Shown here in pieces: positions 19,175 to 26,655 of a stretch of 33,128 nucleotides of DNA. The first letter of the stretch is position 1, and each line of letters starts with the position of its first letter. A program made the position numbers and the translations under genes. Source of the DNA: Pirellulales bacterium (GTDB lineage: Bacteria > Planctomycetota > Planctomycetia > Pirellulales > PALSA-1355); NCBI GenBank assembly GCA_040901665.1, contig JBBDYK010000203.1, forward strand, positions 1 to 33,128, in the 5' to 3' direction. Below the pieces are notes generated by a model. It worked only from the letters and a program-made list of their open reading frames with translations. It had not been told where the DNA came from and made no database searches.

Positions 19175-20623
19175 TCATTGCATCTGAATCTCGACCGATG
19201 CTTTCGCGGCCGCGTGGCCGTGGTGCGTCGTCGCCGGCCCGAGACGTCGCTGGCGGTCCTTGACCAACTGTTCCGCGACCGCGTACCGAGAGACGACGCC
19301 CGGCTGTGGATACAAGCCACCGCCGAAAATCAGTGCGGTGAGAACGAGCACGGCAATCCGCTCGGGGCGGCGGATTTTCAGATCGACTTTCGCGACGTGC
19401 GGCGTACCAGTAAACACGCGAAAATACGCGTGCATCACGGCCAGTCCATTGAGCGCGGCCACGCACACCACGATCACCCCGACCAGGGGAACCGTGTGTA
19501 CCATGCCGTCGACCAGCAACTCCGCGCCGATAAATCCAGCCGTGCCTGGAAAACCAATGCTGGCCAGACCCGTGACGAGAAACAGCAGGGCCAGTCCCGG
19601 GGTGTGATGGTAGAGGCCGTGGAATTCGTCGAGCGAAAGCCGACCGGTGCGCGACTCGACCGAGCGCAGCGTGAGCCCGAACCCGGCCATCGAGATGCTG
19701 ACGGAGATCCACATGCACAGCGCGGCTGTCAGACTGATGGCCGTCGCGGTTTCCAGCCCGACGAACACCAGCGAAGAGTGGCTGAGGAACAAGTAGCAAA
19801 AAAAACGTCTGGCTTCGCGCTGCACCAGGGCCATGCCGGCGGCGTACACGGCCGTCAGCAGAGAAAGCATGGCGATGCTGTGCAACGCCCATTCGGGAGC
19901 GATGGGCAGCACCAATCGAAGGGCCGCGTACACGCCGACCATGGGCGTCACGAACAGCAACGCTGTGCCAAAGGTCGCGTTCTCGAACAGGTCGGTCATC
20001 CAACAGTGCAAGGGGACAATGCCGCTGCGCACCAGGACCGCGGCCATCAACAAACCGATGCCGATGACGGATCCCACGCCCCGGTCGACGTCGACCAGCC
20101 ACTGCCCGGTTACTAGCAAAGCGACGAACAGCATCATGTGTAACACGAACACGCGCGTCGACCGGCGGCGCAATCGCAAGTTGATATAGGGCGAAATCGT
20201 CCCGGCCACCAGCAAGGCAATGATGACCCAAGGGCGATCGGTGCTAAACGTCGCCAACAGGATGGCTTCGGACAGCAACAGCCGCGGAAACGACAGCCGC
20301 CGCACCTTGGTGCGCAACGTGGCCAGGACCGTCAGCAATGACAGCAACGACGCCAAGGAAAGCAAGGGCGCACTCAGCGCGTCGATGCCGATGACCGGCG
20401 CCACGTGGAACGCCATCATCAAATCCCACGGGTCGTGCACCTCACCGCCCGAGAGCGTCGCGTAATCGCACCAGGCGCCCAGGGTTAGCAGCAGTGCGAT
20501 GCCGCAAAACACCAGGCTGTATCGCCGGGCCGCGTCGGGATCACGGATCTGCGCAGTGACGATTGCGCCTACCAGCGGCACGGCAATCGCCAGCTCCAGC
20601 CACGGAAGGTGCAACTCGTTCAT
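19175..20623 (-). CDS. NuoM/ND4-like proton-conducting membrane subunit (degenerate), third gene of the dab operon
   Basis: About 13 hydrophobic segments; [29 protein letters not shown]...EFHGL and [21 protein letters not shown] overlap with dabB and GAGGA SD. Confidence 0.85.
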
Positions 20624-22011
20624 AGCAGCAGATCCTCGATCGGCGGCGAAGGGTCGCGAATGCTATCGGATTCTCGCGACGGATGTCCGGCTAACAAGTC
20701 GGTCCATTTGCGCTCCATCGTGTCGCACCAGCGAAAAATACGCACGAAGGGCCATACCAGGAATTCATTGATGATCGAATCCAGATGCCCCCGCTCGAAC
20801 GACAATCGATACAAGCGGTGGTTCACACTCGTCGGCAACCAGCGGCTGGCGTGCGATTCCGCCGGAAGGTGCGAGCCGATGGCGTTTTCCAAGGTGCGAT
20901 AATCGTGCAGCAGCGACGGCGCCCGCACGAGTTGCAACGTTCGTAACGTGGCATGGCCGATGATGTGCACCAGCGGAATGTATTGCATTCCGAGTCCGAT
21001 TTCTGCGGTAATGATCCCCACCTGCGTCAGCGACGCGTATGCCAGCGCGCTCTTGACGTCGGTCTGCACGCGCGCCGTGAGCGCCGCCAAGATCGCCGAG
21101 GCTACTCCCAGCACCACCACCGCCGCGCTCAGCCACGTCGACAGCTCGAGAATCGGACTCACGCGCAACAGCAAAAAGGTTCCCAGATGAACCGACAACG
21201 CGCCGTAAAAGACGGCACTGGATGGCGTGGGTCCTTCCATCGCTCGGGGCAGCCAGCCCGAAAACGGGATGAGTGCCGACTTGCCGGCCGCGGCCACCAA
21301 CAGCAACAGTCCGATCACGAGCGCCTGGTTGGAGCTCAGCGCGGCGTGCCCATCGGGCCAGGCCCCCTTCCCCATCAATCGGTCAAAATCCCCTTCACCC
21401 GTCAAATGGTGCAGCGCGACGGCGGCGATCAAAAATGCCGCGTCCGCCACACGATAGACACTCCACACGCGCTGTCCATTGATCACCGGCGCTGTGCGCT
21501 CGTGGAAATAGGCCACCAACAGTGCGGAGGAGAGTCCCACCAATTCCCAACCGAGAAACAGCGTCTCGATGGTCCCAGCCAGGGAAGCGACGATCATACC
21601 CACCAGGAACAACGCGTACAGCAAGAAAAATCGATGATATCCGGGCTCGCGGTGTAGATACCTGCTGGCAAAGGCGCCGATGGTCCCGAGCAATACATAG
21701 GAGAGGACGACAAAGGGAACCGACAACCGGTCGAACATGAACTTGAGGTGAAAGTGAAAATTCTCCTGGGGAATGACCACCCAGTTGCCCACTTCGAGCA
21801 CGACGTTTCGCTCCCCCGATACCAACATCATCGCCAGCATGGCGATCGCAGCGAGAAAGCCGACGACCACCGCAACGTAATTGAAACGGGCCGTGACGCG
21901 TTCGCTCAGCGGCCAACCACCCAGGAGCGTCAATCCCACGCCCAGCAACAGCACGATGGGGGCGATTACCGTCAGAGCGCCAGCCATGTGCAGCAACGGA
22001 TCCAGAGTCAT
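20620..22011 (-). CDS. dabB: Inorganic carbon transporter membrane subunit DabB/MpsA (truncated NuoL-like)
   Basis: Start ATG 22011 (AAGGAG SD, ATGA overlap with dabA stop); [57 protein letters not shown] and HIIGHA; 463 aa. Confidence 0.88.
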
Positions 22012-25127: not shown

Positions 25128-25788
25128 GGTTCGGTTACTCGCTGCCAAAGTATGGTTCGGAACCCCAAAGCACACCGCCGAGCCCCCCGCCGCGAGCGGG
25201 CGAAAGCGGGGATCGGGCGCGCGCGTCGAGCCGTCGACGAGTCCGATTGCGAGAAATCCCTATCCGGAAAACCATGAGTCAGCGATACAATCGTCGGTTG
25301 CAGATGTGGTTGTGCCGCGTGAGAGCCCGACATTTCGGTCCCAGCGGAGCAACTTTCGGCGAGGGGATAGAAGGCGCGCATGTCGCGCGACCTGGCTGGC
25401 AAAACGGCTCGGGCAGGCACCTTTGGTCTGGGCGGTTGCAGTGAAGCGGTGAATGGACCTGAAGATTTGGAGCCACGGCGATCCCTGTCCACTTATCCAA
25501 AAACACGATCGGAGCAGATGGCGACGAATCACGCCCGTGTGGCGAGTGCCTCCATTCGTCGTAACTGCCTTACACGACTAATCTCAGACTCATCCCGGAC
25601 CGCTTCTCAATGGCGCGCCGAGCCACGACATGACCATGAACTTGTGCTTCATGCCTGCCGAGCAACCTTTGACGTATCGTAGGCTCGTACGTTACATCGA
25701 TCCAGGGCGGACTCGAGATCCTTAAGGTATTTTAATCTAGCGCCTCAGATGTGCGGTATGTGTCACGTTTTCTTGTGCGAGGTTCCCC

Positions 25789-26655
25789 GTGGATTTGATC
25801 TATCGCTTTGATCCATTTCAGCCGATCTCGGTGAGCCGCCCAAGCAGCGCCGAGTCGGCCATCGAGGCGCTGTTGACTGGAAACCTGCGACTCGTGTCGT
25901 CGATTCAGCGGATGCAACAGGCCACGATGGACGGCAAAGTCGACGCGGAACCGACAGTCGTGCCGATCGATCTGTTTTCCTTGGGCCTGCCGCTGTTCAA
26001 GGGCATCACGCCCGACCAACTGCCGTACGCGTTGGTGCTGGGATGTTCCGATGCTCGCGTGCCGATCGAGTGGGTGTTCGATCAGGGCTTCAACGATCTG
26101 TTCGTGGTGCGCATCGCCGGCAACGTGGTGGGCGCCGACTGTATCGGCAGTTTTCAGTACGCAGTGCGGCACTTGGGAAAAAGCGTGCAGACGGTCGTCG
26201 TCTTGGGACACACGAGTTGCGGGGCAGTGACGGCGGCTGTCGACGCCTACCTGAGTCCCTCGGATTACGCCAACATCGCCTTCAGCCACTCGCTGCGATT
26301 GCTGGTCGATCGCGTCATGATCGTTGTCCGCGGTATGGCCAACGCCATCAAACAGCACTACGGGCACGAGATTACGACCCACCCGAACTACCGTGCGGCG
26401 CTCATCGAGGCGACCGTCTATCAAAACGCCGCCATTACGGCGTTCGACCTGAAGCGCGAACTATTCGCAAATCACGTACTTCCGCTCAACGTGGTCTATG
26501 GCGTGTGCAACGTCGGCACGATGCTGGTCACTTCGCTTCCCGAGACAGCCACGACGACGGAGCCCGGGCTGAAAAAGGCGCCCGAGCGAGCGGACGAGAT
26601 CGGACCGCTCGGCGAGCAGATCGTGCAGGCGCTGGCGGCCACGGAGATTTTCTAG
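25789..26655 (+). CDS. Beta-class carbonic anhydrase
   Basis: GTG start after GAGG; L..GN.R, DQLP, GCSDARVP (Cys 26044), DLFVVRIAGN and GHTSCGAV (26209-26220); no signal peptide. Confidence 0.92.
   Translation: MDLIYRFDPFQPISVSRPSSAESAIEALLTGNLRLVSSIQRMQQATMDGKVDAEPTVVPIDLFSLGLPLFKGITPDQLPYALVLGCSDARVPIEWVFDQGFNDLFVVRIAGNVVGADCIGSFQYAVRHLGKSVQTVVVLGHTSCGAVTAAVDAYLSPSDYANIAFSHSLRLLVDRVMIVVRGMANAIKQHYGHEITTHPNYRAALIEATVYQNAAITAFDLKRELFANHVLPLNVVYGVCNVGTMLVTSLPETATTTEPGLKKAPERADEIGPLGEQIVQALAATEIF

What the first reader, a model, noticed from the sequence alone, without database searches (positions are those of the whole stretch)
19175..26655. Atypical inorganic-carbon pump module: three-gene DAB operon with an extra antiporter subunit, divergent from a beta-carbonic anhydrase
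Seen: dabA (intact Cys/Asp/His/Cys Zn site), dabB and a second 482-aa Mrp/complex-I-type membrane subunit are joined by ATGA stop/start overlaps at 22008-22011 and 20620-20623. A beta-CA lies head-to-head across a ~660-bp intergenic region. No other nuo/mrp genes and no RuBisCO are in the window. Established: characterised DAB (Halothiobacillus neapolitanus) and MpsAB (Staphylococcus aureus) pumps use one DUF2309 subunit and one NuoL-like subunit, sometimes with a small accessory protein. Inference: this is a distinct architecture with two antiporter-like subunits, likely supplying bicarbonate for anaplerotic or biosynthetic carboxylations in a probable heterotroph. I cannot confirm from sequence alone that it is undescribed.
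Basis: partly seen in the sequence, partly recalled or inferred. Interest (0 to 1): 0.85.

Follow-up and report, generated by a model that had tools for sequence, protein, structure and literature searches.

The report
Planctomycete CO2 pump with NuoM-like subunit
This is a conserved three-gene version of the bacterial DAB carbon-dioxide pump, found in planctomycetes, in which a shortened membrane subunit is paired with a full-length but partly degenerate complex-I-type (NuoM-like) subunit, a form that the papers I could search do not describe.

Summary
On the minus strand lie dabA (22008-25175; PF10070 end to end, Zn ligands C523/D525/H710/C725), a NuoL-like dabB (20620-22011) and a 482-aa PF00361 gene (19175-20623). 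They are joined by two ATGA overlaps. A beta-carbonic anhydrase diverges upstream.

The third gene is not incidental. The order dabA-dabB-third is kept in 20 of 20 loci fetched from a planctomycete sample. In the 80 best genome-contig loci, dabB lies directly upstream in 80 of 80 and dabA in 75 of 80 (the other 5 contigs begin inside dabB).

- dabB here is truncated. It has TM1-11 plus a conserved cytosolic tail and lacks the TM12-15 of characterised DabB.
- The third protein has a full 14-helix NuoM fold but is half degenerate. The TM5 Glu, TM8 Lys and TM11 His are lost, the TM7 Lys is an invariant Arg, and a TM12 acid is kept.

Papers of 2026 show that DAB1 is a DabA-DabB-DabC heterotrimer whose small DabC mimics half of NuoM. 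This locus is therefore a new variant of a known kind, not a new kind. It is not a DAB1 member by DabC sequence, gene order, DabA clade or DabB length.

The function (PMF-coupled CO2 hydration that supplies bicarbonate) is inferred, not tested.

The parts
22008..25175 (-). dabA. Cytoplasmic vectorial beta-CA-like subunit of 1055 aa from the GTG at 25175 (an alternative in-frame GTG lies at 25127). Zn ligands are C523, D525, H710 and C725. A hydrophobic stretch at about residues 605-640 may be the membrane 'elbow'. An insertion at about residues 126-250 is specific to this lineage.
   Evidence: PF10070 1-747/747, 816 bits. The only PF10070 hit in the genome. 250 bits to solved DabA2 9rd0_A. Zn ligands invariant in 30 of 30 sequences; the insertion is filled in 72-100% of three-gene DabA rows and in 0-24% of the other groups, except 0.75 for the three 'other' long DabA rows at residues 126-150.
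20620..22011 (-). Short dabB. NuoL-like membrane subunit of 463 aa with TM1-11, then a conserved cytosolic or lateral helical tail. It lacks the TM12-15 of characterised DabB. Its ATG overlaps the dabA stop (ATGA).
   Evidence: PF00662 plus PF00361 positions 6-225 of 294 only; NuoL model positions 5-352 of 615 only. Family invariants E156, K244, K320, H349, H353, R357 and a conserved tail. AF2 model pLDDT 80.3: 11 TM helices, then helices 367-378, 394-406 and 408-441. Overlap confirmed.
19175..20623 (-). Third subunit. A full-length 14-helix NuoM/MrpD-like protein of 482 aa, partly degenerate: R199 replaces the TM7 Lys, an acid is kept at 368 in TM12, and the TM5 Glu, TM8 Lys and TM11 His are lost. 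Its ATG overlaps the dabB stop (ATGA).
   Evidence: PF00361 at 87.7 bits; NuoM models. PDB NuoM chains to E 1.2e-20. AF2 pLDDT 87.1; Foldseek top hit 8e9g_M, TMq 0.83. hhalign to NuoM E 7.7e-40 over 455 columns. Residue mapping. Overlap confirmed.
25176..25788 (.). Divergent intergenic region between dabA and the beta-CA gene; presumed to hold both promoters.
   Evidence: Sequence read. No Rfam family found. The promoter scan found nothing in this stretch.
25789..26655 (+). Beta-class carbonic anhydrase of 288 aa with intact CxDxR...HxxC motifs. No signal-peptide-like N-terminus can be seen. A recurrent but not universal neighbour of this module.
   Evidence: PF00484 at 86.9 bits. The only PF00484 hit in the genome. 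Homologues within 8 kb in 16 of 80 related loci, at 150 bits or more in 8 of 80.

Best explanation
The three co-translated genes encode a heterotrimeric DAB/DAC-type vectorial carbonic anhydrase typical of Planctomycetota.

Proposed mechanism:
- DabA hydrates CO2 that has diffused into the cytoplasm, at its buried Zn site.
- The reaction is made one-directional by proton flow through the NuoL-like DabB. DabB keeps the TM5 Glu, the TM7 Lys and the TM11 His-His-(Arg) chain.
- In this lineage DabB has lost TM12-15 and ends in conserved cytosolic or lateral helices.
- The third subunit packs its C-terminal half (TM8, TM12-14) against DabB TM5-6. This is how NuoM packs against NuoL, and how DabC sits in DAB1. 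The DabB tail clamps it.
- Most canonical proton-path residues of the third subunit are gone, while an invariant TM7 Arg and a TM12 acid remain. It most likely acts as a structural and electrostatic partner that stabilises and tunes the DabB channel and gives DabA a larger membrane platform. It is less likely to be a second pump.
- The physiological output is cytoplasmic bicarbonate for carboxylases in a probable heterotroph.

Shown: gene content, conservation, folds, residue patterns.
Inferred: the complex itself, its geometry, its energy coupling and its physiological role.
For: Gene identity:
- dabA is a full PF10070 with invariant Zn ligands.
- dabB falls in the DabB clade next to NuoL-type proteins (SH-aLRT 94 and 100).

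Linkage:
- Two ATGA overlaps join the genes.
- All 22 genomes with the third gene are among the 42 of 301 sampled planctomycete genomes that carry PF10070.
- The order A-B-third holds in 20 of 20 fetched loci.
- In the best 80 of 545 relatives, dabB is adjacent in 80 of 80 and dabA is seen in 75 of 80. The gap from the dabB stop to the third gene's start is an estimated -7 to +4 nt in 61 of 80.
- The third protein is 49-58% identical to the window's across the same-class and same-order genomes of that sample.

Complementary pattern:
- Where the third gene is present, DabB ends at the same tail: 80 of 80 alignments end at P0002 residues 505-533.
- Two-gene planctomycete loci have DabB of 503-672 aa. 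The three checked by a hydropathy count (L053-L055) have about 13-14 TM helices.

Fold and geometry:
- Third subunit: AF2 pLDDT 87, NuoM/NdhD/MrpD top hits.
- Complex prediction of DabB with the third subunit: score 0.81 in each of 3 runs, best of 3 controls 0.00. That mark was reached by 58 of 80 solved complexes and 2 of 110 mismatched pairs. Runs agree in at least 86% of contacts, and partner pLDDT is at least 80. The interface is DabB 152-202 (including E156) and 422-447 against third-subunit 260-268 and 334-451. Because NuoL-NuoM complexes are solved, this pass may reflect likeness to them.

Link to DabC:
- The DabC profile matches third-subunit residues 191-438 (probability 96.6, E 6.6e-10).
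- This is better than its match to a planctomycete NuoM profile of like depth (88.5, E 2.7e-6).

Published mechanism:
- DabC is required yet lacks proton residues, and the DabA elbow displaces DabB TM12-15 (PMC13684180, sections read).
Against: - There are no experimental data for any planctomycete DAB.
- No RNA run holds the locus, so co-transcription is not shown.
- The predicted interface may be recalled from complex I.
- The third subunit keeps an invariant Arg and an invariant acid in membrane helices, which would be unexpected for a purely structural protein.
- Alone, P0003 matches the DabC profile only weakly (probability 61, E 8e-5). A real DabC region scores 98.1. Equivalence to DabC therefore holds at superfamily level only, and both are hydrophobic and degenerate, which could inflate profile scores.
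- A cytoplasmic beta-CA next to, and in some relatives downstream of, a vectorial CA would short-circuit a bicarbonate pool. The simple supply model does not explain this.
Confidence: 0.7

Rival explanations
1. The third subunit is an active second ion path. The planctomycete DAB would then move two ions per CO2, or couple to Na+ as well as H+, like a minimal Mrp or complex-I membrane arm. This would give a larger driving force for CO2 capture.
For: - Full-length 14-helix antiporter fold, N-terminal half included.
- An invariant charged pair of positions: R199 in TM7 and an acid at 368 in TM12. Distant family members carry EE, ED or DD at 367-368.
- Strong purifying selection: 49-58% identity to the window's protein across the same-class and same-order genomes of the sample.
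Against: - Of the five positions conserved in 17 planctomycete NuoM sequences (E143, K234, K265 and E407 invariant; H348 in at least 90%), the third family keeps none unchanged: E143 is hydrophobic or small, K234 is Arg, K265 is Met/Leu/Gln, H348 is Ser or Val, and E407 is mostly Ala with the acid moved by one residue.
- From general knowledge, arginine is a poor proton carrier.
- A natural 351-aa version that lacks the N-terminal helices and the Arg exists in L063.
- Published DabC works without such residues.
Confidence: 0.2
2. The module is mainly a cation/proton or pH-homeostasis device. An Mrp-like pair would be regulated or driven by CO2/bicarbonate chemistry, working together with the neighbouring beta-CA, rather than serving as a carbon-supply pump.
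For: - Recurrent beta-CA linkage in different positions. It lies divergently upstream in the window and in L069. It lies directly downstream on the same strand in L070, L078, L083, L095, L117 and L130.
- A CA gene also sits in a mycobacterial plasmid dabB-dabA operon.
- MpsAB was first described as a membrane-potential-generating system (abstract listing of PMC6689103).
Against: - All characterised PF10070/PF00361 systems accumulate inorganic carbon or rescue CA-free strains (papers read).
- The DabA catalytic site is intact.
- The beta-CA is missing from 64 of 80 related loci.
Confidence: 0.07
3. The third gene is unrelated to the DAB pump: an orphan NuoM-like gene that merely lies next to it, or a decaying relic.
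For: - It carries only a generic PF00361 match and is annotated as NuoM in public records.
- Several canonical residues are lost.
Against: - Start/stop overlap with dabB.
- Invariant adjacency in 80 of 80 loci and 20 of 20 loci.
- High conservation, with an intact frame in the 19 sequences aligned.
- Every sampled genome that has it also has PF10070 (22 of 22).
- No nuo or mrp genes lie beside it.
Confidence: 0.03

Closest known systems
DAB1 (DabA1-DabB1-DabC) of Thermocrinis albus and Halothiobacillus neapolitanus (PMC13684180). A DAB1-type operon on Nitrobacter hamburgensis X14 plasmid 1 (L065) served here as the sequence reference.
   Same: - Three subunits.
- A long DabA of about 1040 aa.
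- A NuoL-like DabB with a conserved TM5 Glu, TM7 Lys and TM11 His-His.
- A third membrane subunit related to the C-terminal half of NuoM. The DabC profile matches third-subunit residues 191-438 at E 6.6e-10, and the third subunit is predicted to sit on the NuoM side of DabB.
   Different: - The third subunit is 482 aa with a Pfam PF00361 match and 14 helices. DabC is about 250 aa with no Pfam match.
- It keeps R199 and E368, where the DabC consensus has no charged residue.
- Gene order is A-B-third, against B-C-A in L065.
- DabB lacks TM12-15 (PF00361 positions 6-225, against 1-286 in L065 DabB).
- TM11 carries Arg where T. albus has K316.
- DabA falls in the other major DabA clade, and its extra length comes from a different insertion.
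DAB2 / MpsAB / two-subunit DAC (H. neapolitanus DabA2-DabB2, PDB 9rd0; S. aureus MpsAB)
   Same: - PF10070 plus a NuoL-like PF00361 core.
- Zn site.
- DabB TM1-11 is the part shared with NuoL (PMC13144422 passage).
- P0001 and P0002 match 9rd0 chains A and B at E 3e-73 and 7e-22.
   Different: Two genes only, and DabB2 has 15 TM helices. Here DabB stops after TM11 and a conserved third gene follows.
NuoL-NuoM pair of respiratory complex I, and MrpA-MrpD of Mrp antiporters
   Same: - Folds of both membrane subunits.
- Predicted side-by-side packing, with the DabB TM5 Glu facing TM12 of the partner and a C-terminal helix of the L-type subunit lying on the M-type subunit.
- The third subunit groups with NuoM-type proteins and DabB with NuoL-type proteins.
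   Different: - No other nuo or mrp genes are present.
- The M-type subunit has lost most proton-path residues.
- The L-type subunit is truncated.
- The partner is a carbonic-anhydrase-like DabA instead of a redox or antiporter module.
Cyanobacterial NDH-1MS CO2-uptake modules (NdhD3/NdhF3/CupA)
   Same: A vectorial CO2 hydration unit mounted on an NdhF (L-type) plus NdhD (M-type) pair. NdhD chains (6khi_D, 6tjv_D) are among the best structural matches of the third subunit.
   Different: CupA is unrelated to DabA. Those modules are part of a redox-driven NDH-1 complex, and nothing of that kind is encoded here.

Membership tests
DAB/DAC inorganic-carbon pumps (PF10070 + PF00361) | Full-length DabA (PF10070) with the beta-CA-like Zn ligands Cys, Asp, His, Cys | tested here: met
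   PF10070 1-747/747, 816 bits. C523, D525, H710 and C725 invariant in 30 of 30 aligned DabA sequences.
DAB/DAC inorganic-carbon pumps (PF10070 + PF00361) | An adjacent NuoL-like DabB with conserved proton-path residues | tested here: met
   PF00662 plus PF00361. In the DabB clade. E156, K244, H349 and H353 invariant, with R357 in place of the TM11 Lys.
DAB/DAC inorganic-carbon pumps (PF10070 + PF00361) | Energy-coupled CO2 uptake: rescue of CA-free E. coli and CCCP-sensitive Ci accumulation | not testable with these tools
   Needs a bench experiment.
DAB1 (DabABC) | A small third subunit, DabC (about 250 aa, no Pfam domain) | tested here: not met
   The third protein is 482 aa with PF00361. 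BLASTP to Nitrobacter DabC finds nothing. Alone against the DabC profile it reaches probability 61, while a true DabC region reaches 98.1.
DAB1 (DabABC) | A third subunit homologous to, and placed like, the NuoM helices next to NuoL | tested here: met
   Family-to-family hhalign probability 96.6, E 6.6e-10, residues 191-438. Predicted interface with DabB TM5-6 (may be recalled from complex I).
DAB1 (DabABC) | DabA belongs to the DabA1 lineage, and DabB is full length (TM12-15 present) | tested here: not met
   DabA lies in the other major clade from Nitrobacter DabA1 (SH-aLRT 100 for both clades). DabB covers PF00361 positions 6-225 only and has 11 TM helices.
DAB2 / MpsAB two-subunit pumps | Two genes suffice, and DabB has about 15 TM helices | tested here: not met
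   A conserved third gene is present in 80 of 80 and 20 of 20 loci, together with a truncated DabB.
Complex I NuoM / Mrp MrpD proton-translocating subunits | The 14-helix antiporter-like fold | tested here: met
   Foldseek top hit 8e9g_M, E 4.4e-19, TMq 0.83. hhalign to NuoM E 7.7e-40 over 455 columns.
Complex I NuoM / Mrp MrpD proton-translocating subunits | Conserved TM5 Glu, TM7 Lys, TM8 Lys, TM11 His and TM12 Glu/Lys | tested here: not met
   Positions invariant or nearly so in 17 NuoM sequences become V/A, R, M/L/Q, S/V and A (with the acid one residue on) in the third family.
Complex I NuoM / Mrp MrpD proton-translocating subunits | Encoded within a nuo or mrp gene cluster | tested here: not met
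   The only PF00361 genes on the contig are the two in this operon; the nuo- and mrp-like clusters lie on other contigs.

The most novel reading that the evidence does not exclude
The planctomycete module may preserve the ancestral form of all DAB pumps: a DabA mounted on a complex-I/Mrp-like L-M pair. The 351-aa third subunit of L063, the 250-aa DabC of DAB1 (free, or fused to DabB as in L049) and the two-subunit DAB2/MpsAB would then be successive reductions. In that case the full-length third subunit could still take part in ion translocation, through R199 and E368. This would give a two-module vectorial carbonic anhydrase and a direct evolutionary bridge between respiratory antiporter modules and CO2 pumps.
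Probability: 0.2. Interest if true: 0.75.

Novelty: new variant of a known kind. Interest (0 to 1): 0.55.

Why it matters
DAB pumps are candidate parts for engineering CO2-concentrating mechanisms, and their coupling mechanism is only now being resolved (two structure papers of 2026).

- The role of the essential but enigmatic DabC is open. A widespread natural variant offers a ready-made comparison for asking what the third subunit does and which DabB helices can be dispensed with. In this variant the third subunit is a complete NuoM-like protein that still carries two buried charges, and DabB has shed TM12-15.
- It shows that DAB genes in Planctomycetota are mostly of an uncharacterised three-subunit type. 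The genes are present in 42 of 301 sampled genomes, and at least 22 of those have this type. The third gene is annotated in databases simply as 'NADH-quinone oxidoreductase subunit M'.
- Cultured, non-pathogenic strains carry it (L098, L120, L123), so it can be tested directly.

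Tried and rejected
1. Is the third protein a DabC family member? No.
- BLASTP against Nitrobacter DabC gave nothing.
- The 'shorter' protein search returned only fragments of the same family cut by contig ends, and no small DabC-like proteins.
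- Only profile-profile comparison links them.

2. Is the third gene a duplicate of dabB? Rejected. In the PF00361 tree it groups with NuoM-type proteins (SH-aLRT 89), and all DabB group with NuoL-type proteins (100). That tree used the quick method, gives no bootstrap, and has long branches for Third351_L063 and two own-genome rows.

3. Is the long DabB (628-672 aa) of the two-gene A-to-B planctomycete loci a fusion of short DabB with a remnant of the third subunit?
- Its last 206 residues match third-family TM12-13 (E 4.5e-11).
- They also match NuoM (E 7.3e-7), but not DabC.
- This is what the ordinary TM12-13 of a full-length DabB would give, so I do not claim a fusion.

4. Is the long DabA a sign of DAB1 kinship? 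Rejected. The extra length lies at about residues 126-250, where Nitrobacter DabA1 has gaps, and the tree separates them.

5. Are the neighbouring genes part of the system? The 1698-aa gene downstream is conserved only in the closest relative, L069. IleS was found in none of the 100 loci of those two sets. Rejected.

6. Expression. No RNA holder is listed for the locus.

7. Rfam found no family in the window. The promoter and terminator scans were at background level.

8. The protein atlas only confirmed planctomycete PF00361 clusters as nearest neighbours.

9. Range outside Planctomycetota could not be surveyed.
- The single genome-contig scan returned only its best 80 of 545 relatives. Of those, 79 titles name a planctomycete taxon and one says 'uncultured bacterium'.

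10. Sources I could not see.
- Schmid et al. 2021 (PMC8570276), which tested two- and three-subunit DACs, is not held.
- Supplements are closed. The SI of PMC13684180 (its list of 50 DabA1 operons and the DabC figures), or Schmid et al., could mention long third subunits that I could not see.

Full report
**What is there**

The window is a contig of a planctomycete-type metagenome-assembled genome. Genes for PSCyt1/PSCyt2/PSD1 and DUF1501 proteins flank the region, and the genome is 74% complete.

On the minus strand lie three ORFs:
- The first (22008-25175) matches Pfam DabA (PF10070) over all 747 model positions at 816 bits.
- The second carries the NuoL-type N-terminal domain PF00662 and PF00361.
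- The third (482 aa) carries PF00361 and is most like NuoM models.

Reading the DNA confirms both ATGA stop/start overlaps, at 22008-22011 and 20620-20623. dabB is therefore 463 aa, from the ATG at 22011.

The four Zn ligands of DabA (C523, D525, H710, C725) are present and invariant in 30 of 30 DabA sequences that I aligned.

A beta-class carbonic anhydrase with intact CxDxR and HxxC motifs lies divergently upstream. It is 613 bp away, or 661 bp, depending on which GTG starts dabA.

This is the only PF10070 gene and the only PF00484 gene found in the genome. The other PF00361 genes sit in nuo- or mrp-like clusters on other contigs. RuBisCO was not found (the genome is incomplete).

**Is the third gene part of the system?**

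Yes, by every comparative test I could run.

- The protein has more than 3,500 database relatives at E of 1e-5 or better among the 8,000 candidates scored. The best 120 are 59-85% identical. Where a source names them, the names are planctomycete 'NuoM' or 'proton-conducting transporter'.
- In an even sample of 301 genomes of the phylum, 42 have PF10070 and 22 have the third protein at E of 1e-40 or better. All 22 are among the 42.
- I fetched 20 of the 21 non-own loci; one lay on a 2.4-kb contig. All 20 show dabA, dabB and the third gene in that order on one strand.
- A scan of 185,579 species genomes with a 10-sequence alignment found 545 relatives. The best 80 were kept. Of these, 79 titles name planctomycete taxa, including cultured Bremerella cremea, Bythopirellula polymerisocia and Schlesneria strains, and one says 'uncultured bacterium'.
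- In those 80 loci dabB is directly upstream in 80 of 80. dabA is upstream in 75 of 80, and the other five contigs begin inside dabB. The dabB stop and the third gene's start are an estimated -7 to +4 nt apart in 61 of 80.

- P0002 covers only positions 6-225 of 294 of PF00361, and only positions 5-352 of 615 of the NuoL model.
- The DabB of a DAB1-type operon on Nitrobacter hamburgensis plasmid 1 covers positions 1-286 of PF00361.
- The AF2 model (pLDDT 80.3) has 11 transmembrane helices, then helices at 367-378, 394-406 and 408-441.
- The tail is conserved in the family, with the motif LYRxALERGxLD...LERRWT.
- According to the 2026 structures, DabB2 has 15 TM helices, of which TM1-11 superpose on NuoL (PMC13144422, passage). 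In DAB1 the DabA elbow displaces TM12-15, and TM11 continues into short cytosolic helices that contact DabA next to the active site (PMC13684180, section read).
- The planctomycete DabB keeps the TM5 Glu (E156), the TM7 Lys (K244) and the TM11 His-His (H349, H353). It has an invariant Arg (R357) where T. albus has K316, and it simply lacks TM12-15.
- The pattern is complementary. Loci with the third gene have the short DabB: all 80 alignments end at the same tail. Two-gene planctomycete loci have DabB of 503-672 aa. The three checked by a hydropathy count (L053-L055) have about 13-14 helices.

**What the third protein is**

- Its AF2 model (pLDDT 87.1, pTM 0.87) is a complete 14-helix antiporter-like fold. 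The best Foldseek hits are NuoM, NdhD and MrpD chains: 8e9g_M at E 4.4e-19 and TMq 0.83, with 191 matches at E of 0.001 or better.
- Its family profile aligns to a planctomycete NuoM profile over 455 columns (E 7.7e-40).
- In a PF00361 tree it groups with NuoM-type proteins (SH-aLRT 89), while all DabB group with NuoL-type proteins (100) (quick method). It is therefore not a dabB duplicate.
- It is half degenerate. Four positions are invariant in 17 NuoM sequences (E143, K234, K265, E407) and H348 is nearly so. In the third family they become:
  - E143: Val, Ala and the like.
  - K234: an invariant Arg (R199).
  - K265: Met, Leu or Gln.
  - H348: Ser or Val.
  - E407: Ala, with an invariant acid one residue on (E368). 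Distant members have EE, ED or DD there.
- The identification of these positions as the proton-path residues of E. coli NuoM is recalled knowledge. The counts come from the calls.

**Relation to known systems**

- Papers of 2026 show that DAB1 of T. albus is a DabA-DabB-DabC heterotrimer. [quoted passage not shown] It aligns structurally to the NuoM helices next to NuoL, has hydrophobic residues where NuoM has proton carriers, and is nevertheless required.
- I took a DAB1-type operon (dabB 565 aa, dabC 253 aa, dabA 1037 aa, then P-II) from the Nitrobacter plasmid and built a 27-member DabC alignment.
- The DabC profile matches residues 191-438 of the third family, that is TM7-14, with probability 96.6 and E 6.6e-10.
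- A NuoM profile of similar depth scores lower against DabC (88.5, E 2.7e-6).
- As single sequences the difference is small: P0003 reaches 61%, and the genome's own NuoM 27%.
- A true DabC region scores 98.1%. This is residues 596-839 of an 848-aa DabB-DabC fusion in planctomycete locus L049.
- So the third protein is a superfamily-level counterpart of DabC and not a DabC family member.
- DabA also separates. The three-gene DabA, the L063 DabA and the long two-gene A-to-B type form one clade. Nitrobacter DabA1, L049/L050 and the B-to-A type form the other. Both clades have SH-aLRT 100.
- The extra length of the window's DabA lies at about residues 126-250. This insertion is filled in 72-100% of three-gene DabA rows and in 0-24% of the other groups, except 0.75 for the three 'other' long DabA rows at residues 126-150.
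- One locus (L063) has a short DabB with a 351-aa, roughly 7-helix third subunit that lacks the Arg. This is a natural intermediate in size.

**How it probably works**

- The complex prediction for DabB plus the third subunit scored 0.81 in all three runs, against 0.00 for the best of three controls. That mark was reached by 58 of 80 solved complexes and 2 of 110 mismatched pairs. The runs agree in at least 86% of contacts, and partner pLDDT is at least 80.
- The interface joins DabB TM5-6 (152-202, including E156) and the C-terminal helix (422-447) to the third subunit's TM8 and TM12-14. This is the NuoL-NuoM arrangement, and the position reported for DabC.
- Because NuoL-NuoM complexes are solved, this result shows likeness and not proof of binding.
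- My reading follows.
  - DabA hydrates CO2 at its buried Zn site.
  - Proton flow through DabB makes the reaction directional, as proposed for DAB1 and DAB2.
  - The third subunit is a structural and electrostatic partner whose TM12 acid and TM7 Arg face the DabB Glu/Lys pair.
  - The DabB tail acts as a clamp, and the lineage-specific DabA insertion may cover the enlarged membrane platform.
- These steps are inferences. The physiological role, bicarbonate supply in a heterotroph, rests only on the absence of a RuBisCO hit and on what is known of MpsAB and DAB in heterotrophs.

**The beta-CA**

- Homologues lie within 8 kb in 16 of 80 related loci, and at 150 bits or more in 8.
  - One lies divergently upstream, as in the window (L069, the closest relative).
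  - Six lie directly downstream on the same strand.
  - One lies downstream on the opposite strand.
- Weak hits also occur in 4 of the 20 sampled three-gene loci.
- The link recurs in different arrangements, so it is probably functional, but most loci lack it.
- A cytoplasmic CA beside a vectorial CA is not explained by the simple supply model. Opposite regulation by CO2 level is one possibility.

**Verdict**

The architecture is real, conserved and widespread in Planctomycetota. I did not find it in the papers I could search. Schmid et al. 2021 and all supplements were not available.

Noticed in passing
L049:4891-7434 (+), genome G151: An 848-aa DabB whose residues 596-839 match the DabC profile (probability 98.1, E 8.4e-14). 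This is a DabB-DabC fusion. It is followed by a 1061-aa DabA that groups with Nitrobacter DabA1. True DAB1-type systems therefore also occur in Planctomycetota, distinct from the window's type.
   Followed up: partly
L063:3618-8524 (+), genome G240: A variant with an 849-aa DabA, a short 467-aa DabB and a third subunit of only 351 aa (about 7 helices). It lacks the TM7 Arg and sits at the base of the three-gene DabA clade on a long branch.
   Followed up: partly
L070, L078, L083, L095, L117, L130 (about 230-310 nt after the third gene, same strand); L074 (opposite strand): In these relatives a beta-CA homologue (155-211 bits to the window's) lies directly downstream of the third gene, as if it were a fourth operon member. 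In the window it lies divergently upstream instead.
   Followed up: partly
L065 (Nitrobacter hamburgensis X14 plasmid 1, NC_007959.1 263298-275780): Two tandem copies of a dabB-dabC-dabA-P-II unit lie about 7 kb apart. The DabC and P-II proteins carry identical accession numbers in both copies.
   Followed up: no
L064 (Mycolicibacterium aubagnense plasmid NZ_CP122998.1): A small mobilizable plasmid carries dabB-dabA, a transcriptional regulator and a carbonic anhydrase in a row. This is another case of a CA gene joined to a DAB operon.
   Followed up: no
window 14022-19118 (-): A 1698-aa multidomain protein (GDSL lipase-like, DUF7133, HEAT repeats, F5/8 type C, cupredoxin-like and cytochrome c domains) starts 56 bp downstream of the third gene on the same strand. 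It is conserved as a neighbour only in the closest relative, L069.
   Followed up: partly
G277:C19:9696-11066 (L043), G060:C9:6056-7414, G214:C244:49176-50609: The matches to the third protein in these genomes each contain one in-frame TGA. This could be a sequencing error, a pseudogene or recoding; I did not examine it.
   Followed up: no
G230:C32:33680-35986 (L048): The PF10070 match lies in an open frame of 1597 aa, and the DabB and DabA matches overlap in my ORF calls. This may be a fused DabB-DabA protein, of the kind the literature mentions.
   Followed up: no
window 8267-12765 (+): A typical planctomycete gene pair (PSCyt1/PSCyt2/PSD1 protein followed by a DUF1501 protein), which supports the taxonomic placement of the contig.
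   Followed up: no
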